Positions 6,972 through 39,480 of a DNA stretch of 64,000 bases are shown one piece after another. Source of the stretch: a virus (taxonomy: Duplodnaviria > Heunggongvirae > Uroviricota > Caudoviricetes). The position numbers and the translations under genes are program-made. A model generated the notes under the pieces. The model was not told where the DNA came from, did not search any database, and saw only the letters and a program-made list of their open reading frames with translations. Every line of letters starts with the position of its first letter. Position 1 is the first letter of the stretch. Where the stretch lies: the IMG/VR virus record IMGVR_UViG_3300008107_000202; one strand, given 5' to 3'.

Positions 6972-7361
6972 CTATTCTATCATGACTTTCTTGTTTGTCA
7001 AGTAGTTCCAGACTACTATTTGTAACTTTTTGTTTCTAGCAGTTTCAATCATGTTGCGAGTGCCAGGACTTTTTTCATCCCACAATGCAATAAGACCTTG
7101 TGCTACATTTGCCATTTGCGAATTGCGAACATGACCAGCACCTTTGAAGAATTTACCGTTAGGATACCAGTCAGCAGGATACTTGTCAACTGGAATTTGT
7201 CGCATTTCTGCAAACAACTCACCGACACGATCTGCTCCGCGAGCACAACCAGAGACTACTTCCGTGATTTTACCATAACGCTGCTCGAAGTCAAGCACTG
7301 CTGCTTTGCACTGTCGAACTTGCTCTGGTACGTCACGACTACCTGCGATGATTACTTTCAT
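6972..7361 (-). CDS. SLOG-family Rossmann protein (DUF2493/YspA-like)
   Basis: MKVIIAGSRD ... VVSGCARGADRVGE, a close match to the DUF2493 consensus. Confidence 0.65.
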   Translation of the reverse strand: MKVIIAGSRDVPEQVRQCKAAVLDFEQRYGKITEVVSGCARGADRVGELFAEMRQIPVDKYPADWYPNGKFFKGAGHVRNSQMANVAQGLIALWDEKSPGTRNMIETARNKKLQIVVWNYLTNKKVMIE

Positions 7362-10950: not shown

Positions 10951-11760
10951 ATGAACATTCGTAATATTGGTCGTACTCTTGCAATCGCTCTGATTGCTAT
11001 TTCTGCTGCTGCTTGTACTCGTGTCGAAACGGGTGAAGTTGGTCTGCGTGTTGACATGTCGAAACAGGTACAGATGGGTGAACTGATGCCCGGTAGCTGG
11101 AACCAGACTCTTGTTGGTGATGTGCTGACGTTCCCTGTGCGAGACATTGGTGGTAGTCTTGAAGACAAACGTCCGCTTACCAAAGATGATGTTGCACTGA
11201 AGCAAGTTGACCTGTCGTATGTATACGGTGTTAGTCCTACCGCTGTTGCTGAACTTTGGACTAAGCAACCACGCTCGTTTCACTTTGTAGATACCAAGTC
11301 AGGTGACACGTTCCTGATGGCAGTTCGAATGCAAACTCTCGTTAACAACGCCCTCTATGAAGCTGTTCGCAAGTACGGCACCAAAGAAGTTAACGACAAG
11401 CGACAAGCAATTGAACAAGATGTAAACGACATCGTTGCTCGAACTCTGAAGAACGACAAGCTCGAAGGTGTGTTGACACTGACTAGTGTACAAGTTCGTG
11501 CAATTGATCTTCCTGACAACATTCGTGACAGTGCAGCAGAAGTTGTGCGTTCACAGAATATGCTTGCTGTGAAAGCCAACGAAGTTGCGATTGCTGAAAA
11601 AGAAGCCGAACGTATGCGTGCTCTGAGTGCTAACTCTGGTCAGTCGATTGCATACATGGACGCACAAGCTCGGTTGAATATCTCTGAGGCTGTGAAGCTC
11701 GGTAAGGTTTCGACTATCGTCGTGCCGCACGACTTCAAGGGTTTCGTGAACGTTAAGTAA
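10951..11760 (+). CDS. SPFH/band-7 (HflK/prohibitin-like) lipoprotein
   Basis: Signal peptide with lipobox AAAC, then an SPFH-like core (GEVGLRV...TKDDVAL..VDLSYVYGV). Confidence 0.45.
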   Translation: MNIRNIGRTLAIALIAISAAACTRVETGEVGLRVDMSKQVQMGELMPGSWNQTLVGDVLTFPVRDIGGSLEDKRPLTKDDVALKQVDLSYVYGVSPTAVAELWTKQPRSFHFVDTKSGDTFLMAVRMQTLVNNALYEAVRKYGTKEVNDKRQAIEQDVNDIVARTLKNDKLEGVLTLTSVQVRAIDLPDNIRDSAAEVVRSQNMLAVKANEVAIAEKEAERMRALSANSGQSIAYMDAQARLNISEAVKLGKVSTIVVPHDFKGFVNVK

Positions 11761-12120: not shown

Positions 12121-13182
12121 ATGACAGAACGTGCTCTAGCTACCATCCGTAAGATTGAAGAAATTGCCCCCATTGAAGGGGCAGACAAGATCGAAGTTGC
12201 CCGTGTTGGTGGCTGGCGTGTTGTCGTGAAGAAGGGTGAATTCCAAGTCGGTCAACTCGCTGTATACTTCGAAATCGACTCGTGGATTCCTCACGATCTT
12301 GCTCCGTTCCTGACTCGTCCTGGCAAGGAACCTGCTGAGTTCAATGGTGTCAAGGGTCAGCGTCTGCGCACGGTTCGTCTGCGTGGTCAAATCTCGCAAG
12401 GTCTACTGCTGCCCATTATTGACACATGTGGAATGGACTTTATTGGTTTTACTGTTAATGGTTTTTTTGTTACAGGTAACTATAACGAAGGTGATGATTT
12501 CACTGAAAAGTTGAATGTTCAGAAGTGGGAAAAGCCTATTCCTTCGAACATGCAAGGTATCATGCGTGGTAACTTCCCTTCGTGTGTACCGAAGACTGAT
12601 CAAGAGCGTGTGCAAAACATCAAGACTTCCGTTCTTGAGCAGTACGTTGGTCATCATTTCGAAGTAACTGAAAAGATGGACGGTTCAAGCTGTACCATGC
12701 TGCTTGACTCTGAAGGTCTGTTTCATGTATGCTCTCGTAACGTTGACCTCGAACGTGATGAGTCGAATGTCTACTGGCAAATGGCTATCAAGTATGATGT
12801 TAAAGCTAAGCTTCGTGAACTGATTGCTCTTGGTGGTTCAATGGCTATTCAAGGTGAAATCTGCGGTCCTGGTATTCAAGGCAATCAGTATGAATTTACT
12901 GAACCGGATTTCTTTGTGTACGACATGTATGACCCCGGTACTGCAACATATTGTCCTCCAGGTATTCGACAATCCATTGTGGAGGCACTAGGTCTAAAGC
13001 ATGTTCCTGTTATCGTGATGGGTACACTACAAAGTGCTAATCGTGATGTGCTACTGGAAGACGCCAAGGATTGTTCAGTGTTTAATAAAACACCACGAGA
13101 AGGTCTGGTGTTCAAGCTGAATTCTAAGGATCGTTTTAGCTTCAAGGTAATCAGCAACGACTGGCTGGAGAAGTACGAATAG
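12121..13182 (+). CDS. ATP-dependent RNA ligase, Rnl5 (Naegleria/Deinococcus)-like: N-terminal domain plus C-terminal nucleotidyltransferase
   Basis: Motif I EKMDGSS, motif IV EGLVFK, motif V FKVIS; no C-terminal OB domain. Confidence 0.5.
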   Translation: MTERALATIRKIEEIAPIEGADKIEVARVGGWRVVVKKGEFQVGQLAVYFEIDSWIPHDLAPFLTRPGKEPAEFNGVKGQRLRTVRLRGQISQGLLLPIIDTCGMDFIGFTVNGFFVTGNYNEGDDFTEKLNVQKWEKPIPSNMQGIMRGNFPSCVPKTDQERVQNIKTSVLEQYVGHHFEVTEKMDGSSCTMLLDSEGLFHVCSRNVDLERDESNVYWQMAIKYDVKAKLRELIALGGSMAIQGEICGPGIQGNQYEFTEPDFFVYDMYDPGTATYCPPGIRQSIVEALGLKHVPVIVMGTLQSANRDVLLEDAKDCSVFNKTPREGLVFKLNSKDRFSFKVISNDWLEKYE

Positions 13183-19760: not shown

Positions 19761-21284
19761 ATGTTTCAACCTAACCCAATTCTCGCTGCTGACTTCTACA
19801 AAATCGGTCACGTTTTCCAGTATCCGCTTGGTACCAGCGAAATCTATTCCAACCTGACTGCTCGTTCGAACAAGCGTGCTCCGCTTGCAAACGGTCGATA
19901 CATTGACAAGGTTGTATTTGTTGGTTTGCAAGTATTCCTGATGCAATTCCTGCAAGAGCAATTCCAAAAGCTTTTCTTTGATAAGCCAAAGGCTGATGTT
20001 GTTGCTGAGTTCAATCGTCGTAATGATGGTGCTCTCGGTCCTGGCTCGGTTGATAGCTCGCACATTGCTGCGCTGCACGACCTGGGTTACCTGCCTCTGG
20101 AAATCAAGGCACTTCCTGAAGGCTCGCTCGTTCCGATGGGTGTCCCGATGTTGACTGTTCACAATACTCTGCCTGAGTTCTACTGGCTGACGAACTTCAT
20201 CGAAACTGCTCTCAGTGCTGAAATCTGGAAGATTATTACTTGCGCAACTGTCGCGTTCGAATACCGTAAACTGCTTGAGCGTTGGGCTAAGCGAACTGGT
20301 TCTCCGAAGGATTTCGTTCTGTGGCAAGGTCACGACTTCTCGATGCGTGGTATGTCGGGTATCTCCGATGCTGCTCAATCTGGCATGGGCCACCTATTCA
20401 GCTTCCTTGGTACTGACACGATCCCTGCAATCGAAGCTATCGAAAAGTTCTACAACGGTCTTGCAACCTTCGTCGGTGGTTCGGTTCCTGCAACTGAACA
20501 CAGTGTGATGTGTGCTGGTGGCATGGAAGATGAGAAGGAAACCATTCGTCACCTGATTCAAGATGTTTATCCGAGTGGTGTTGTGTCGGTTGTTTCTGAC
20601 ACCTGGGACTTCTTCAAGGTTGTTACTGAAACTGCTACTGAACTCAAGGATGTTATCCTGAATCGTCAACCGAATGCACTTGGTCTTGCCAAGGTTGTGT
20701 TCCGTCCTGACAGTGGTAATCCTGCTGACATTCTCTGTGGTGATCCGAAGGCTCCTGCTGGTAGTCCTGAGTCGAAGGGTGCTGTGGAATGTCTGTGGGA
20801 AATCTTCAGTGGTACTGAGACTGAAACTGGTCACAAGCTTCTGAATCAACGTGTGGGTCTGATCTACGGTGATAGCATCACGCTCGAACGTGCTGAAGAA
20901 ATCATGCAGCGTTTGCACCTGAAGGGATTCGCTTCCGCTAACGTGGTGTTCGGTATCGGTAGCTTCACGTATCAGTACCTGACTCGTGACACTTTCGGCA
21001 TGGCAATGAAGGCTACTTCTGCTGTGGTGAATGGTCAACGTCGCGCACTGTTCAAAGACCCCAAGACTGACGATGGTCTGAAGCGTAGTGCTCGCGGTCT
21101 GCTGAAGGTTCAAGAGCTTGACAACGGTAACTTTGTCCTGCACAATGACTGCACGGTTGAACAAGAACAGACTGGTGCTTTGCAGACGGTGTTCCTCAAC
21201 GGTCGAATCACCAAGATGTTTACCATCGATGAGATTCGAGCTAAGGTCAACACTGCTGTTGACAAGTATCTGCTGACGGTATAA
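19761..21284 (+). CDS. nadV: nicotinamide phosphoribosyltransferase (NAMPT/NadV)
   Basis: The N-terminus ILAADFYKIGHVFQYP and overall length are typical of NAMPT. Confidence 0.85.
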   Translation: MFQPNPILAADFYKIGHVFQYPLGTSEIYSNLTARSNKRAPLANGRYIDKVVFVGLQVFLMQFLQEQFQKLFFDKPKADVVAEFNRRNDGALGPGSVDSSHIAALHDLGYLPLEIKALPEGSLVPMGVPMLTVHNTLPEFYWLTNFIETALSAEIWKIITCATVAFEYRKLLERWAKRTGSPKDFVLWQGHDFSMRGMSGISDAAQSGMGHLFSFLGTDTIPAIEAIEKFYNGLATFVGGSVPATEHSVMCAGGMEDEKETIRHLIQDVYPSGVVSVVSDTWDFFKVVTETATELKDVILNRQPNALGLAKVVFRPDSGNPADILCGDPKAPAGSPESKGAVECLWEIFSGTETETGHKLLNQRVGLIYGDSITLERAEEIMQRLHLKGFASANVVFGIGSFTYQYLTRDTFGMAMKATSAVVNGQRRALFKDPKTDDGLKRSARGLLKVQELDNGNFVLHNDCTVEQEQTGALQTVFLNGRITKMFTIDEIRAKVNTAVDKYLLTV

Positions 21285-22743: not shown

Positions 22744-22880
22744 TGAAAAAGTTCATCTTTACACTCCTGATCGGTGTCTTTGGGGCATTGACAGGAGTTC
22801 TTTTCACTGTATCATACCTCGATCCTGGCATTCGATTAATGATCGGTTTCTTCTTAGCTAACCTCGGAGTCTACTACTAA
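22743..22880 (+). CDS. small membrane protein (45 aa)
   Basis: ATGA overlaps on both sides; hydrophobic. Confidence 0.3.
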   Translation: MKKFIFTLLIGVFGALTGVLFTVSYLDPGIRLMIGFFLANLGVYY

Positions 22881-23731
22881 TGAACTACCCGTCCCTCAAG
22901 CAGATGCAGCAACTCGTCGCAGATAAGCTTGCTATTCAGAAGCTTTATGGTGACGATCTGGTAATGTTTAAGTATTCACGCAAGGCTATGTTCGACTACA
23001 TGTGGTTCAAGCGACCTGAACTCATGGAGTGTCGTGGTCATGTGTACCGTCTTTCGACTGGTGAGCGTGTGGTACATGCTCCCCGTAAGTCGTTCAATTA
23101 TCTTGAGAATGATTGGTGGAAAGATGTTCCATTGAACACCGAAGTCCGTATCGACAAAAAGTTTAATGGTTATATGGCATGTGTAACCTTGGTGGATGGT
23201 GACTGGTTGATTACGACTACTGGTAGTTTCGATAGTGAATACGTCAAGCATGCGCAGAATATGCTGACTGGTCATCCTGCTCTTGAAAACGAAGACAACA
23301 TTGATTGCACACTGGTATTTGAAATCTGCGACAGTAAGTTTGATCCACACATTGTTGAGGAACAAGATGGTGCTCACTATCTTGGTTCTCGCATTTCTAA
23401 CGGAAATTGGCTTGCTTATTCGACTTCCAATACTGTGATTGGAATTACCCTCGGTGAAGCAATTCAACTTGCTGAGCGTGATCACGGTGAAGGTTTCATG
23501 GTCTATCAGCTACAGGGTGATCCTCTGTACAATCGTCCATGTAAGCTGAAGAGTCCGTATTACATTGGTAAGAAAATGCTGATGCGTGCTACTCCGTATT
23601 TTAAGATTGATCGACTACCAAAAATGTGGAAAAATGCACCATATTTGATTCAAGATCATTATCTGTGGTCAGATTGGTGTGAACTACCCGAACAAGAACG
23701 TCGTCTATTTTTGGAGAATCACTATGGATAA
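22880..23731 (+). CDS. Rnl2-like RNA ligase (nucleotidyltransferase)
   Basis: Motif I DKKFNGYMA (KxNG), motif IV EGFMVYQ, motif V CKLKS; the N-terminus resembles T4 Rnl2. Confidence 0.5.
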   Translation: MNYPSLKQMQQLVADKLAIQKLYGDDLVMFKYSRKAMFDYMWFKRPELMECRGHVYRLSTGERVVHAPRKSFNYLENDWWKDVPLNTEVRIDKKFNGYMACVTLVDGDWLITTTGSFDSEYVKHAQNMLTGHPALENEDNIDCTLVFEICDSKFDPHIVEEQDGAHYLGSRISNGNWLAYSTSNTVIGITLGEAIQLAERDHGEGFMVYQLQGDPLYNRPCKLKSPYYIGKKMLMRATPYFKIDRLPKMWKNAPYLIQDHYLWSDWCELPEQERRLFLENHYG

Positions 23732-35309: not shown

Positions 35310-35321
35310 TTCTGTCAGGAT

Positions 35322-35382: not shown

Positions 35383-35889
35383 ATGGGATTCCTCTTCGAA
35401 ACTAAGTCGTGCAGCCGTTGTGGTGGTTCTGGTCGCTATAGCTTCAACCTGATGAACGGTGATCGATGCTTCGGTTGCGGCGGCACTGGTCTGCAGCACA
35501 CCAAGCGTGGTTCTGCTGCCCGTGCGTTCTTCCACAAAAGTCTGGAAAAGCCGCTGAGTGAAGTCAAGGTTGGTGATTACATCCTCTTCGACACTTCCAT
35601 GTTCGGTGGCCCTGAACGTTGGTGCAAGGTGGAAGCAATTGAAGCCGGTCAGTCTCCCTACATCATCAATGGTGTACGTGACGAGTCGATTCGCTACAGT
35701 CTGAAGCTGAGCCGCAAGGGCAAGGAAGTCTGCGGATGGAGTGGTCTTGCGTTGGATCACATGTTGAAGTCCGTCAAAAATGATGAAGAATTGAATGCTC
35801 GCAAGGCTGCTGCTATTGCCTACCAGGGCACGTTGAGTGAAAAGACTGGTAAGCCTGTGAAACAAAAAGTCCAGGCGATTTCCGAGTAA
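35383..35889 (+). CDS. Zn-ribbon protein
   Basis: CSRCGGSGRY..CFGCGGTG. Confidence 0.4.
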   Translation: MGFLFETKSCSRCGGSGRYSFNLMNGDRCFGCGGTGLQHTKRGSAARAFFHKSLEKPLSEVKVGDYILFDTSMFGGPERWCKVEAIEAGQSPYIINGVRDESIRYSLKLSRKGKEVCGWSGLALDHMLKSVKNDEELNARKAAAIAYQGTLSEKTGKPVKQKVQAISE

Positions 35890-35937
35890 TTTTGTCGGGA
35901 TTTGCAGAAGTCTTCAGAACTAGTGTATACTGCGTTT

Positions 35938-36139
35938 GTTGAGTCGTTCTTCTAGTGGCCCAGGAAATGTTCCCGTCTTGTGGACAGAACGCAGGTTCGA
36001 ATCCTGCACGACTCGACACCTTAACTTAGTTCCTAGTTTAACGGCCAAAAACGAAGCCTCTATCCCGTTCGATTCGGGTAATCTGCATGATGGTCGCAGG
36101 GGTTGTATCCAAGGTTCGATTCCTTGGGGAACTAAGTTA
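35938..36139 (+). ncRNA. Structured tRNA-like RNA driven by B-type promoter copy 2: element 1 (35938-36011) with acceptor GAGTCGT/ACGACTC and T-arm GCAGG-TTCGAAT-CCTGC; element 2 (36018-36139) closed by a perfect 15-bp stem and containing two T-arm mimics
   Basis: Stems and T-loops read directly. No plausible ORF, so the overlapping table ORFs were rejected. Confidence 0.35.
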
Positions 36140-36161
36140 AGGTAATCAACAGGAGAACACA

Positions 36162-36782
36162 TTGGAAAAAATCGTTGACATTCTCGGGCAAGAAATCAAA
36201 GTTGGTGATGTAGTTGTTGCCACAAACCAAAGCACGATCTACAATCAAGTTCACGTTGTGACTCGTCTTGGTTCTGCTGACAAAATTCAAGTCAACGGGT
36301 CAAGCTATGCTAAGGCTGTGTACCTGATGGTCATCAATGAACAATACAAGATTGCCAAGGGTGAAGAAAAATTCGACGCTCTGCGCATGCAACATGAAGA
36401 GTACATGAACGAAGAACGTGTGGTCAAAAAGCCGCATACCCCTCGCTTCCTTGTTCTGCGATATGCTGATTACCCTCGCAATGTGAACGGTAAATACACC
36501 GTTGATCAGTGTCCGGTCTTTTACGTGATAGGTACCTGCGCAACAATTCAGGATACAGTCAAGAAAATCAACGATATTACCAAGGATTGCAGTAAGGGTG
36601 AATACTTCGAACGTAAGAATCTGAAACCCAAGAACATGCAGTTTAGTTATTCGGACTTCAGCAAGGACTTCAGTCGAAAGGCTCTCGTTGAGATTGACAT
36701 GGACCTTGAATTGTGGGTTGATCAACGTGTGAGTGAAGACTCTGAAACATACAAAAAGCTTCTGACGCTGCAAAACCGATAA
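36162..36782 (+). CDS. hypothetical protein
   Basis: ORF only. Confidence 0.4.
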   Translation: MEKIVDILGQEIKVGDVVVATNQSTIYNQVHVVTRLGSADKIQVNGSSYAKAVYLMVINEQYKIAKGEEKFDALRMQHEEYMNEERVVKKPHTPRFLVLRYADYPRNVNGKYTVDQCPVFYVIGTCATIQDTVKKINDITKDCSKGEYFERKNLKPKNMQFSYSDFSKDFSRKALVEIDMDLELWVDQRVSEDSETYKKLLTLQNR

Positions 36783-38461: not shown

Positions 38462-39480
38462 TCAAAAACCCATAGGGCTAAAGTTGACTAAAAAACCCTT
38501 GGGGGGTGCTTGACAAAATGCATCCCTGGTGGTGGTTAACCTGGGCCAGATTCGGCGGCCAGCGTTCCGCATGGTGAGAAGCCGTTTCATGATGCGAAAA
38601 GCACGCCGAAGCCCGGGATTCCACAATGTAGAACGTAACACCACGATATGAAACGCTGACTAGCATAAAATCAATCCCTTGTCAAACGTAGGGTCTTTTC
38701 ATATGGTGAAATCCATATAGCACGGAATGTAAACCCCTGTCAAGCGCAGGGGCTTTTCGCATTGTGAAACGTCCAGGCGGCAGCGTGACTAAGCAGTCAC
38801 AGACAAAACCGAAGAGTCACAAAGTATACTGGCACGGATTCTGCTAGTAGCAAACCGCATGCCAGCTTTTGCATACCCCCTACGGGTACCCCTATATACC
38901 CCCGTGGGGTACCCCCTCAATTTACCTAGGGCAGCGCATACCCTACCCCCTATTTTTTACAGATACCCTAGAGGGGGTCGATCTTTTTTTGCCAAGGGTA
39001 GGACAAGGGAAAGCAGGAAAACGGCGCCAAAGCCCGATTAGACCCATCCGTGGGCATTCTCACGATATGAAACGGTCTGACAATCGACTATCTACAGGTT
39101 ATCCACAGAATGCAGGCATGAGACTTGCTAAAGAATCTGCATTAACCCTGCAATTGCGTAGGGTATTGTTTACATGCTAGAATTCTATACGGTCAGAGCA
39201 AATGTCGTATTTATACAACAAACGCGCAGGCTCCACGTCCACCCCAGTCGCTTTCGAATAGAACGATTGTACTACAGAATCCAGGCGCACAAGCAATACC
39301 CGACAAAAACACAGGGACAAATAAAACGCTTGACAGTCCAGGCGGAAACGTAGTAATCGCATGCGCCAGCGTCTAGATGAACAGCACCAGGGAACCTAGG
39401 GTTTACACCTATTCCCTTACAGTTGACAAGGTTATTGTTCGGGTTCACAATAGACCCATCGAATCAAGAAACGGATACAG
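38462..39480. repeat. ~1-kb non-coding region rich in short direct repeats (CACGATATGAAACG x2, GTCCAGGCGG x2, TACCCCC x4) and hairpins (CCCCTG-N7-CAGGGG + CTTTTC)
   Basis: No ORF with an RBS. Repeats read directly. Confidence 0.5.

What the first reader, a model, noticed from the sequence alone, without database searches (positions are those of the whole stretch)
35888..36145. A promoter-cassette copy drives a structured tRNA-like RNA instead of an ORF
B-type copy 2 is followed by an acceptor/T-arm mini-helix (35938-36011), not by the usual leader-RBS-ORF. Then comes an element closed by a perfect 15-bp stem (CCTTAACTTAGTTCC/GGAACTAAGTTAAGG) enclosing two canonical T-arm mimics (CCCG-TTCGATT-CGGG; CCAAGG-TTCGATT-CCTTGG). 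It could be a Y-RNA-like or tRNA-like ncRNA, or an RNase P/RNase E processing module in the 5' leader of gene 36162.
Basis: seen in the sequence. Interest (0 to 1): 0.6.

Follow-up and report, generated by a model that had tools for sequence, protein, structure and literature searches.

The report
Conserved tRNA-like RNA pair in phage leader
A freshwater phage carries, between an early promoter and the next gene, two conserved tRNA-shaped RNAs that no standard tool calls as ordinary tRNAs: one has an oversized anticodon loop and the other is a 124-nt composite with two T-arms and a 15-bp closing helix, so they look like tRNA mimics rather than decoders.

Summary
One copy of a four-copy promoter cassette (35890-35931) runs straight into two structured RNAs. 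The normal RBS and ORF (36151-36156; 36162) follow them.

Element 1 (35941-36015) is a full cloverleaf, not a mini-helix. It scores 38.9 bits on Rfam tRNA, but its anticodon loop has 9 nt (CCGUCUUGU), unchanged in two diverged relatives, and no CCA is encoded.

Element 2 (36019-36142) has a tRNA-like shell: 15-bp terminal helix, D-arm and T-arm. In place of the anticodon loop sits a module made of a T-loop hairpin and a UGG-loop hairpin.

In three diverged sequences 98% of proposed pairs form. Nine pairs carry compensatory changes (3.1 expected; 0 of 500 shuffles reach 9). It matches no Rfam family and no GenBank phage.

Two relatives lack the pair, one of them with the same promoter cassette, so it is an accessory insert. 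Unannotated elements with two T-loops 30-50 nt apart occur in at least 55 IMG/VR contigs.

The same phage encodes a Ro60 (Y-RNA-binding) ortholog and two RNA ligases.

Best reading: tRNA mimics processed from the leader that act in trans without decoding. Element 2 may be a Y-RNA-like Ro60 partner or a decoy. Function is inferred, not shown.

The parts
35890..35931 (+). Copy 2 of the repeated promoter cassette. Putative -35 TTGCAG at 35902-35907 and -10 TATACT at 35926-35931. The inferred start near G35938 leaves a leader of about 3 nt before element 1.
   Evidence: Four-copy direct repeat family D1. Copy 1 is a near-consensus sigma-70 site. The same cassette is conserved in L122, L131 and L139. 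Promoter activity itself is inferred.
35941..36015 (+). Element 1, a tRNA-like cloverleaf. Acceptor 35941-47 with 36008-14; D-arm 35950-66; anticodon-type stem 35968-72 with 35982-86; T-arm 35991-36007; discriminator G36015. No CCA is encoded.
   Evidence: Rfam RF00005 38.9 bits. ARAGORN calls it only with relaxed thresholds or as Lys(CUU) with a 2-nt 'intron'. The cloverleaf is 96.8% paired in three sequences, but with only one compensatory pair, which is not significant.
35973..35981 (+). The 9-nt loop CCGUCUUGU in place of a 7-nt anticodon loop.
   Evidence: Invariant in the window, L122 and L131, while the flanking stem changes in ways that mostly keep pairing.
36019..36142 (+). Element 2, a 124-nt composite tRNA-like RNA.
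   Evidence: MFE -42.4 kcal/mol, z = -3.45. The proposed structure is 98.3% paired, with 9 compensatory pairs against 3.1 in shuffles (0/500) and 1-2 in slid controls. No Rfam family matches and no blastn match exists in GenBank phages.
36019..36033 (+). 5' strand of the 15-bp terminal helix, pairing with 36128-36142. The inner 7 bp occupy the acceptor-stem position; the outer 8 bp extend it.
   Evidence: Four fully compensatory changes (columns 6, 13, 14, 15) and no mismatch in any of three sequences.
36036..36052 (+). D-arm-like hairpin D1 (GUUU, 9-nt loop, AAAC), preceded by UA in the U8/A9 position.
   Evidence: ARAGORN -i cloverleaf. The stem is kept through U-A to U.G. The loop varies and its GG is lost in L122 and L131.
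36052..36055 (+). CGAA core at the junction of D1 and the central stem, invariant in the three sequences.
   Evidence: Alignments A2/A3. This core was used to pick phage Y-RNA-like RNAs in PMC12135203. The strict YrlA motif GNCGAAN0-1G is not met.
36055..36104 (+). Central stem (36055-59 with 36100-04) enclosing the inner module. T1 is the T-loop hairpin at 36063-79 (loop UUCGAUU 36068-74). D2 is the hairpin CUGC-AUGAUGGUC-GCAG at 36083-99.
   Evidence: The central stem has one compensatory pair (G.U/G-C to U-A). T1 has one (C-G to U-A). D2 is 100% conserved, so it is untested by covariation. The T-arm then D-arm order inside a stem matches the YrlA consensus apart from the missing acceptor-like hairpin.
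36109..36127 (+). T-arm T2 (6-bp stem, loop UUCGAUU at 36115-21), abutting the terminal helix with no linker, as in tRNA.
   Evidence: Three compensatory pairs in the stem.
36143..36164 (+). Resumed cassette leader TAATCAAC, RBS AGGAGA (36151-56) and TTG start of ORF 36162-36782 (206 aa, no known family).
   Evidence: Sequence. Compared with cassette copies 1, 3 and 4 and with the RNA-free cassette of L139. ORF list; no Pfam or PHROG hit.
4659..6050 (-). Context, not shown to be linked: a Ro60/TROVE+vWA ortholog inside the tRNA cluster. It is a possible protein partner for a Y-RNA-like RNA.
   Evidence: DUF2828+DUF7788. PHROG 850 'RNA-binding protein'. 35-37% identity over the full length to mycobacteriophage 'Ro-like RNA binding protein'. 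AF2 model pLDDT 82.6, whose six best Foldseek PDB hits are all Ro60/TROVE structures, E 6e-10 to 7e-7.

Best explanation
The stretch is an accessory, non-coding insert of about 205 nt in the 5' leader of one early-gene cassette. It encodes two tRNA-shaped RNAs.

Shown:
- Both folds are present.
- Element 2's fold is maintained by compensatory substitutions.
- Element 1's odd 9-nt loop is invariant.
- The pair is present or absent as a unit among close relatives, and sits in front of different ORFs.

Inferred:
- The cassette promoter transcribes the RNAs together with the downstream mRNA.
- Host tRNA and dsRNA processing nucleases then release them. RNase P or RNase E would act at the tRNA-like ends, and RNase III or another endonuclease at the 15-bp helix.
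- The released RNAs act in trans as tRNA mimics that do not decode. Neither has a usable anticodon loop or an encoded CCA, whereas the three neighbouring tRNAs of this phage whose 3' ends were read encode CCA.
- Element 2 presents T-loop and D-loop surfaces on a long terminal helix. Its most likely role is as a protein-binding scaffold. It could be a Y-RNA-like partner of the phage's own Ro60 ortholog, or a decoy for host tRNA-directed nucleases. The phage's two RNA ligases suggest it meets such nucleases.

My split within this explanation is roughly 0.25 Ro60 partner and 0.2 decoy or other binder.
For: Structure and conservation:
- Rfam tRNA hit for element 1.
- Both elements and the cassette recur in L122 and L131, at 92% mean column identity.
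- Element 2 has 9 compensatory pairs against 3.1 in shuffles (0/500) and 1-2 in slid controls.
- The 9-nt loop is invariant.

Not protein-coding:
- The + strand ORF over the RNAs acquires a stop in both relatives.

Accessory unit:
- L139 has the same cassette without the RNAs, and L135 has no room for them.
- The downstream gene differs between the window and L122/L131.

Not decoders:
- Element 1 has a 9-nt loop. In element 2 the anticodon loop is replaced by a 40-nt two-hairpin module.
- Neither element encodes CCA, but the neighbouring tRNA-Arg, tRNA-Lys and tRNA-Gln do.
- The T1 loop is UUCGAUU in 44 of 55 related elements. Among ordinary T-loops carrying either TTCGAAT or TTCGATT, TTCGATT makes up 43%. 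A pyrimidine at the position that would be nucleotide 37 argues against reading T1 as a Ser(CGA) anticodon loop.

RNA-conflict context:
- Ro60 ortholog and two RNA ligases.
- Phage Ro60 proteins bind phage-encoded Y-RNA-like RNAs (PMC4201824 and PMC12135203).
- No Rfam YrlA hit near the Ro60 gene, so its partner RNA is unassigned.

Broader class:
- Similar unannotated elements with two T-loops occur in at least 55 IMG/VR contigs, some with terminal helices of 14 or more bp.
Against: - No expression, processing or binding data exist.
- Element 2 is 30 kb from the Ro60 gene and on the other strand, whereas YrlA genes lie within 4 kb on the same strand.
- Element 2 fails the YrlA covariance model and the strict GNCGAAN0-1G motif.
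- Limnohabitans phage DC31 has a related two-T-arm element ending in a 7-bp acceptor plus ACCA, but has no Ro60 gene. At least that form may be a charged tRNA-like molecule.
- An extended terminal helix also surrounds a called tRNA-Cys in this phage. The long helix may therefore be a general processing feature rather than a protein-binding site.
- The covariation rests on only three sequences, two of them close to each other.
- Element 1's cloverleaf has no significant covariation.
Confidence: 0.45

Rival explanations
1. They are working but non-canonical tRNAs. Element 1 would decode with an expanded anticodon loop, for example a Lys(CUU)-type reading, frameshift decoding, or escape from anticodon nucleases. 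Element 2 would be a giant-insert tRNA, read either through T1 as a Ser(CGA) anticodon arm with D2 as a long variable arm, or after removal of a 33-nt insert.
For: - Element 1 passes the Rfam tRNA threshold and keeps U8, A14, G18-G19, the G15-C48 pair and a canonical T-loop.
- ARAGORN calls the L131 copy Lys(CUU) at default settings.
- Other tRNAs of this phage are also missed by default tools yet are clearly conserved: a Trp(CCA)-like and a Tyr(GUA)-like gene, each with a compensatory or normalising change in L141.
- The DC31 version of element 2 ends in ACCA.
- ARAGORN reads the L021 relative as tRNA-Ser(CGA).
- Phage tRNAs with altered anticodon loops that evade host nucleases are documented (titles and abstracts of PMC10264068 and PMC11555353).
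Against: - The loop has 9 nt, with no U33/purine-37 register that also keeps a 5-bp stem.
- No CCA is encoded, unlike the neighbouring tRNA-Arg, tRNA-Lys and tRNA-Gln.
- In L122 the first acceptor pair of element 1 becomes G.A, and the Rfam score drops to 28.8 bits, below threshold.
- In element 2 the would-be anticodon arm sits on an extra 5-bp stem and three-way junction, which changes the tRNA geometry.
- The T1 loop has U, not a purine, at the position equivalent to nucleotide 37 in 80% of related elements.
- The 15-bp helix covaries in its outer half too, which is not expected of a leader and trailer that are simply discarded.
Confidence: 0.2
2. It is a cis-acting leader module. The tRNA-like folds and the long helix would serve only as processing and stability signals, defining the 5' end and protecting the downstream mRNA. 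The excised RNAs would have no function of their own.
For: - The pair sits between the inferred transcription start and the RBS, with the RBS 9 nt after the helix and no terminator in between.
- Other modules closed by long helices lie in leaders or between tRNAs in this lineage: window 3701-3911, and L122 4548-4685 in the same leader.
- An extended helix flanks tRNA-Cys.
Against: - A hairpin would be enough for a processing or stability role. The T-loops, the D2 loop and the 9-nt loop are conserved at the sequence level while the stems covary, which points to recognition of the tRNA-like surfaces.
- The other three cassette copies, and L139, drive genes without any such module.
- The module precedes different ORFs in different relatives.
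Confidence: 0.2
3. It is a decaying or selfish remnant: tRNA pseudogenes, or a MITE-like inverted-repeat insertion, carried along without function.
For: - Presence/absence polymorphism among relatives.
- Perfect terminal inverted repeat.
- In L122 a neighbouring module closed by a 16-17-bp helix is flanked by a TAATCAA direct repeat, like a target-site duplication.
- In other phages the two halves of such elements are recent internal duplications: L074, 0 of 2000 shuffles; L021, 2 of 2000.
Against: - There are nine compensatory pairs and essentially no broken pairs across three lineages, though the flanking proteins have diverged to 75-86% identity. That is not expected of a neutral remnant.
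- The loops are invariant.
- Element 2 has no target-site duplication and only one copy in the window.
Confidence: 0.1
4. The antisense ORF 35920-36162 (80 aa) is the real gene and the RNA folds are incidental.
For: That frame stays free of stops in L122 and L131.
Against: - Its ATG is lost in both relatives.
- It has no Shine-Dalgarno sequence.
- All neighbouring genes are on the + strand.
- The substitutions are paired across helices, which protein selection does not explain.
Confidence: 0.02

Closest known systems
Bacterial and phage Y RNAs of the YrlA type (Rfam RF02553; Chen et al. 2014, PMC4201824) and the Yrl1/Yrl2 RNAs of Thermus phage phiLo (PMC12135203)
   Same: - The 5' and 3' ends pair in a terminal helix.
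- An internal junction carries a CGAA core.
- A stem encloses a T-arm followed by a D-arm-like hairpin.
- The genome encodes a Ro60 ortholog.
- The RNA sits in a phage, in a tRNA-rich setting.
   Different: - No hit to the YrlA covariance model.
- The strict GNCGAAN0-1G motif is absent.
- There is no acceptor-like hairpin between the T and D arms.
- An additional outer tRNA shell (D1 and T2 on the terminal helix) is present.
- The terminal helix is perfect, with no bulge.
- It is 30 kb from the Ro60 gene on the opposite strand, instead of within 4 kb on the same strand.
Phage T4 stable RNAs species 1 and 2 (rnaC, rnaD)
   Same: Small phage-encoded RNAs annotated as stable, next to tRNA genes. 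rnaC ends in a T-arm and rnaD ends in CCA. As far as I know their function is unknown.
   Different: They have at most one T-arm and no long terminal helix. The element-2 model finds nothing in the T4 locus. They sit inside the tRNA cluster rather than in an mRNA leader.
Phage tRNAs with altered anticodon loops that escape host tRNA-targeting defences (PMC10264068, PMC11555353)
   Same: A phage-encoded tRNA body with a non-standard anticodon loop, in a phage that also carries tRNA-repair-type RNA ligases.
   Different: Going by their titles and abstracts, those appear to be decoding tRNAs carrying point changes in the anticodon loop. The full texts were not read for loop length. Element 1 has a 9-nt loop and no CCA, and element 2 has no anticodon loop at all.
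tmRNA tRNA-like domain and other tRNA mimics cleaved by RNase P
   Same: An acceptor-type helix stacked on a canonical T-arm. Likely recognition by tRNA processing and modification enzymes.
   Different: There is no mRNA-like region or pseudoknots. ARAGORN's tmRNA search is negative. No CCA is encoded.

Membership tests
Canonical decoding tRNA (Rfam RF00005), element 1 | Cloverleaf with 7-bp acceptor, D, anticodon and T arms, scoring above the family threshold | tested here: met
   38.9 bits against a gathering score of 29 in the window. The L122 copy scores 28.8 bits, just below threshold. 96.8% of cells are paired in three sequences.
Canonical decoding tRNA (Rfam RF00005), element 1 | 7-nt anticodon loop with U33 and a purine at position 37 | tested here: not met
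   The loop is CCGUCUUGU (9 nt) and invariant. ARAGORN needs a 2-nt 'intron' or a C.U mismatch with G33/U37 to call it.
Canonical decoding tRNA (Rfam RF00005), element 1 | 3' CCA and aminoacylation | not testable with these tools
   No CCA is encoded (G36015 is followed by ACAC), while the neighbouring tRNA-Arg, tRNA-Lys and tRNA-Gln encode CCA. Post-transcriptional addition cannot be tested here.
Canonical or intron-containing tRNA, element 2 | Detected by tRNA models; anticodon loop present | tested here: not met
   No Rfam tRNA hit even at E<=10. ARAGORN calls it only with introns allowed ('Ala(CGC)' with a 33-nt insert), only in the window and not in L122 or L131. The insert holds a covarying T-loop hairpin.
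YrlA / Y RNA | Match to the Rfam YrlA covariance model (gathering score 69) | tested here: not met
   No hit at E<=10 in 35850-36200. The 18.4-bit hit in L122 spans the T-arm of element 1 and the D-arm of element 2. This is the 'dimeric tRNA' artefact the family's authors warn about.
YrlA / Y RNA | Terminal helix formed by the 5' and 3' ends | tested here: met
   15 bp, with four compensatory pairs.
YrlA / Y RNA | GNCGAAN0-1G motif near the 5' end (Ro60 contact) | tested here: not met
   Only the CGAA core is present (36052-55). Its context is AAACGAAG in the window, GAACGAAG in L122 and GAACGAAU in L131. It is internal, not near the 5' end.
YrlA / Y RNA | tRNA-like module in the order T-arm, acceptor-like hairpin, D-arm, enclosed by a stem | tested here: inconclusive
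   T1 followed by D2 inside the central stem matches the order seen in the YrlA consensus, but the acceptor-like hairpin is absent.
YrlA / Y RNA | Encoded within about 4 kb of a Ro60 gene on the same strand | tested here: not met
   A Ro60 ortholog exists, but at 4659-6050 on the minus strand, about 30 kb away.
YrlA / Y RNA | Bound by Ro60 | not testable with these tools
   Needs EMSA or co-immunoprecipitation.
tmRNA | tRNA-like domain plus a tag-peptide reading frame | tested here: not met
   ARAGORN -m with lowered threshold finds nothing. No Rfam tmRNA hit.
MITE-like inverted-repeat insertion | Terminal inverted repeats, target-site duplication and multiple copies | tested here: not met
   The inverted repeat is present. 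Element 2 has no flanking direct repeat and only a single copy in the window. The two arms covary, which points to selection on pairing.

The most novel reading that the evidence does not exclude
Element 2 represents a widespread, unannotated class of phage 'twin T-arm' tRNA mimics. In these, a tRNA shell carries a T-loop hairpin plus a D-like hairpin where the anticodon loop would be. In Ro60-encoding phages this form would have been adapted, with a long terminal helix and no CCA, as a new type of Y-RNA-like adaptor or as a decoy against tRNA-directed immunity. Element 1 would be a companion non-decoding tRNA.
Probability: 0.3. Interest if true: 0.8.

Novelty: new variant of a known kind. Interest (0 to 1): 0.6.

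Why it matters
Phages are known to carry tRNAs, a few poorly understood tRNA-like stable RNAs, and in some cases Ro60 with Y-like RNAs. What these RNAs do during infection is largely open.

This locus offers a compact, testable case:
- two conserved tRNA mimics expressed from an early promoter;
- a phage that also encodes Ro60 and two RNA ligases;
- natural relatives both with and without the insert.

If element 2 binds the phage Ro60, or blocks a host tRNA nuclease, it would define a new architecture of Y-like or decoy RNA. It would also give a search model for dozens of similar unannotated elements in viral metagenomes.

There is a practical point as well. Standard tRNA callers miss several structured RNA genes in this phage and in its relatives.

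Tried and rejected
Searches that found nothing or little:
- Megablast, blastn and tblastn of the region and both flanking ORFs against GenBank phages gave no match.
- An exact 24-mer and both flanking proteins against IMG/VR gave nothing.
- Seven JGI contigs carrying the downstream ORF are 100% identical and uninformative.
- The single metagenome scan yielded one new variant, L131.

More distant relatives:
- More distant homologs of the upstream ORF lack the RNA pair (L135) or lie in unrelated phage contexts with no room for it (L137, L138).

Rejected structures and links:
- RNAalifold's own inner fold for element 2 differs from the T1/D2 model. I preferred T1/D2 because T1 covaries and recurs in other phages. 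D2 is invariant, so it is untested.
- The idea that the two halves of element 2 are a sequence-level tandem duplication is not supported in the window (81 of 2000 shuffles; not significant once the T-arms are removed). It is supported in L074 and L021.
- T4 rnaC and rnaD do not share the architecture.
- A search for a YrlA-like RNA next to the Ro60 gene found only divergent tRNAs and a small conserved hairpin.
- Ro60 homologs lie near two-T-loop elements in 5 of 119 IMG/VR loci. Both features sit in tRNA arrays, so the association is confounded. DC31 has the element without Ro60.
- RSP15, the phage with the closest Ro60, has no element-2-like RNA within 9 kb of the gene.
- I looked by eye for complementarity between the 9-nt loop and loops of element 2. 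It is not conserved.
Full report
**What the window is.** The window comes from an uncultured freshwater phage. Its large terminase is 74% identical to that of Limnohabitans phage DC31, filed under Pakpunavirus. The DNA of the region and both flanking ORFs match nothing in GenBank phages. Positions 1-7000 hold a minus-strand tRNA cluster. Around 27-39 kb is a run of small + strand genes, several of them preceded by a repeated cassette.

**Check of the observation.** The cassette has four copies, at 35310, 35890, 36791 and 37362. In copies 1, 3 and 4 the -10 element is followed by GCGTYTATCGCA...AGGAGA and a start codon. In copy 2 the sequence after GCGTTT leaves the consensus for about 205 nt. 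It rejoins at TAATCAACAGGAGAA, just before the TTG start of ORF 36162. So the RNAs are inserted into a normal leader; the RBS and ORF are displaced, not replaced.

A perfect helix of that length within 200 nt is expected about 0.01 times by chance in 64 kb (my estimate). No other + strand T-loop hairpin exists in the window.

Only copy 1 of the cassette passes the sigma-70 consensus scan. Promoter activity of copy 2 is therefore inferred from the repeat.

**Element 1 (35941-36015).** Rfam scores it as tRNA at 38.9 bits, against a gathering score of 29. It has:
- a perfect 7-bp acceptor stem;
- U8, A14, G18-G19 and a G15-C48 pair;
- a 4-nt variable loop and a canonical T-arm.

Its anticodon-type stem closes a 9-nt loop, CCGUCUUGU, and no CCA follows. 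Default ARAGORN does not call it. Relaxed settings give Arg(UCU) with a mismatch. Intron mode gives Lys(CUU) with a 2-nt 'intron'.

The D-arm and the missing nucleotide 47 resemble tRNA-Glu, judging from my own knowledge of E. coli tRNA-Glu. Among 847 ARAGORN-called phage tRNAs the nearest bodies are enriched for Glu, but the similarity is low.

**Element 2 (36019-36142).** The 15-bp terminal helix abuts a 6-bp T-arm (T2) on its 3' side. On its 5' side come UA and a D-arm (D1), as in a tRNA. Where the anticodon arm should be, a 5-bp central stem opens into two hairpins:
- T1: CCCG-UUCGAUU-CGGG;
- D2: CUGC-AUGAUGGUC-GCAG.

ARAGORN in intron mode draws the outer shell as a cloverleaf with a 33-nt insert. 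The MFE is -42.4 kcal/mol with z = -3.45. No Rfam family matches at E<=10.

**Relatives and covariation.** The downstream ORF led to L122, where that protein is 75% identical. A conserved 25-base pattern led to L131. Both carry the same cassette and both RNAs.

For element 2, my structure gives 98.3% paired cells. Nine pairs carry compensatory changes: four in the terminal helix (one of them in its outer half), three in T2, one in T1 and one in the central stem. Column shuffles give 3.1 (0 of 500 reach 9), and slid partners give 1-2. Three sequences, two of them close to each other, make a small sample. Even so, the near absence of broken pairs is hard to explain without selection on the fold. 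The T1 loop, the whole of D2 and the CGAA at the D1/stem junction are invariant. The D1 loop varies.

For element 1 the cloverleaf is kept (96.8%) but with only one compensatory pair, which is not significant. The 9-nt loop is invariant.

The + strand ORF across the RNAs gains a stop in both relatives. The antisense ORF stays open but loses its ATG and has no RBS.

**The pair is accessory.**
- L139 is a relative whose upstream ORF is 86% identical. It has the same cassette running directly into an RBS and a different ORF, with no RNAs.
- L135 (58% identical) has no room for the pair.
- In L122 and L131 the pair precedes an 85-aa ORF that is absent from the window.
- L122 also carries, in the same leader, an extra module of about 135 nt. 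It is closed by a 16-17-bp helix, flanked by a TAATCAA direct repeat, and folds with z = -7.2.

The RNAs are therefore not tied to gene 36162.

**A wider class.** DC31 has a tRNA-Met followed directly by an element with two TTCGATT hairpins 48 nt apart. The spacing in the window is 47 nt. That element has a 4-bp central stem, a UGG hairpin and a 7-bp acceptor ending in ACCA.

The hits are heterogeneous. Of 87 non-redundant hits:
- in 30, the first T-loop belongs to an ordinary tRNA;
- in 55, neither T-loop lies in an ARAGORN-called tRNA, and 46 of these have a UGG between the T-loops.

Rfam annotates almost none of them.

A covariance model of element 2 recovers L061/L074, where the fold shows an uninterrupted terminal helix of about 20 bp, as well as L051 and L021. 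In L074 and L021 the two 'D-loop plus T-arm' halves are clear internal duplicates. In the window they are not similar beyond the T-arms.

The first T-loop is UUCGAUU in 44 of 55 elements. Among ordinary T-loops carrying either TTCGAAT or TTCGATT, TTCGATT accounts for 43%. A pyrimidine at the position that would be nucleotide 37 argues against reading this hairpin as a Ser(CGA) anticodon arm, which is how ARAGORN reads L021.

**Context in the phage.**
- ORF 4659-6050 (minus strand), inside the tRNA cluster, is a Ro60 ortholog. It matches DUF2828+DUF7788 and PHROG 850 'RNA-binding protein'. It is 35-37% identical over its full length to mycobacteriophage 'Ro-like RNA binding protein'. Its AF2 model (pLDDT 82.6) has six best PDB matches that are all Ro60/TROVE structures, including the Thermus phage phiLo Ro60.
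- Ro60 proteins work with Y RNAs. YrlA-type Y RNAs mimic tRNA and lie within 4 kb of the gene (PMC4201824). Phage phiLo Ro60 binds two phage RNAs that were picked out by a terminal helix and a CGAA motif (PMC12135203).
- In mycobacteriophage MiniMac a YrlA-like RNA sits just downstream of the Ro-like gene. Its consensus, a stem enclosing T-arm, hairpin, UA and D-arm, is the same order as the inner module of element 2 apart from the hairpin.
- Here, no YrlA hit occurs within 7 kb of the Ro60 gene. Comparison with relative L141 shows only divergent tRNAs and a small hairpin there.
- The phage also encodes two RNA ligases, one of the T4 Rnl1 type. This fits a conflict centred on tRNA cleavage and repair.
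- Extended terminal helices are not unique to element 2. One surrounds tRNA-Cys (480-565), and a 21-bp helix closes a 211-nt module at 3701-3911.

**Interpretation.** Element 2's fold and conservation are shown. Element 1's fold is kept but without significant covariation.

Neither RNA looks able to decode:
- element 1 has a 9-nt loop;
- element 2 has no anticodon loop;
- neither encodes CCA, whereas the neighbouring tRNA-Arg, tRNA-Lys and tRNA-Gln do.

I therefore favour trans-acting tRNA mimics released from the leader by host nucleases (confidence 0.45). The main sub-options for element 2 are a Y-RNA-like partner of the phage Ro60 and a decoy for tRNA-directed nucleases.

The Y-RNA membership test fails on three defining features: the covariance model, the strict motif, and adjacency to the Ro60 gene. 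I do not file element 2 as a YrlA. It may still work like one.

The rivals are:
- non-canonical but functional tRNAs (0.2);
- a purely cis processing or stability module (0.2);
- a neutral or selfish remnant (0.1);
- an antisense protein gene (0.02).

**Verdict.** This is a real, conserved and unannotated pair of tRNA-like RNA genes with an unusual composite architecture. It is best described as a new variant of known phage tRNA-mimic or Y-like RNAs. Function is unproven. Interest 0.6.

Noticed in passing
window 4659-6050 (-): A Ro60/TROVE+vWA ortholog sits inside the tRNA cluster (AF2 plus Foldseek; the six best hits are all Ro60). No Rfam YrlA hit lies within 7 kb, so its partner RNA is unidentified.
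   Followed up: yes
window 12121-13182 (+) and 22880-23731 (+): Two RNA ligase genes: PF09414 with the PHA02142 OB domain, and a T4 Rnl1-type ligase. Also present are a Band7/SPFH gene (10951-11760) and a NAPRTase (19761-21284). Together they look like an RNA-repair and counter-defence toolkit.
   Followed up: partly
window ~4215-4290 (-), ~3610-3700 (-), 6285-6361 (-), ~4300-4345 (-): T-arm/acceptor elements missed by default ARAGORN and by Rfam at gathering score. The first is a Trp(CCA)-like tRNA ending in CCA, and the second a Tyr(GUA)-like tRNA with an A.C closing mismatch. Both are conserved in relative L141, with a compensatory acceptor change and a normalised anticodon stem respectively. 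The element at 6285-6361 is a partial tRNA-like piece just after an HNH endonuclease ORF (6393-6854).
   Followed up: partly
window 3701-3721 / 3891-3911: A perfect 21-bp inverted repeat closes a structured module of about 211 nt (z = -4.4) between tRNA-Gln and the Tyr-like tRNA on the minus strand. No Rfam match. It is only partly conserved in L141.
   Followed up: partly
window 472-487 / 561-576 around tRNA-Cys(GCA) 480-565 (-): This called tRNA also has an extended terminal helix (12 or more bp beyond and including the acceptor) and no encoded CCA. It has the same design as element 2, which suggests a shared processing route.
   Followed up: partly
window 38583-38602 / 38752-38771: A 20-nt inverted repeat, 90% complementary, with 149 nt between the arms, in the + strand early region. 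Not examined.
   Followed up: no
L122 4548-4685: An extra module of about 135 nt in the same leader. It is closed by a 16-17-bp helix with five inner hairpins (z = -7.2), is flanked by a TAATCAA direct repeat, and is absent from the window and L131. It resembles a MITE-like insertion or a mobile RNA module.
   Followed up: partly
L139 550-625; L135 2995-3012: L139 has the same promoter cassette running straight into an RBS and ORF, without the RNA pair. In L135 the next ORF follows 17 nt after the homologous upstream ORF, leaving no room for the pair. The pair is therefore a presence/absence polymorphism.
   Followed up: yes
L134 (Ralstonia phage RSP15) 2513, 4397, 11312, 12468: Four unannotated T-arm/acceptor elements, two of which (11312, 12468) end in CCA, lie in the tRNA array around this phage's Ro60-like gene. 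Non-canonical tRNA-like genes appear common in Ro60-encoding phages.
   Followed up: no
window 4465-4554 (-): A tRNA-Met(CAT) with an unusually long variable region of about 15 nt lies downstream of the Ro60 gene, beyond a short terminator-like hairpin. The L141 relative has a normal 76-nt tRNA-Met at the same place.
   Followed up: no
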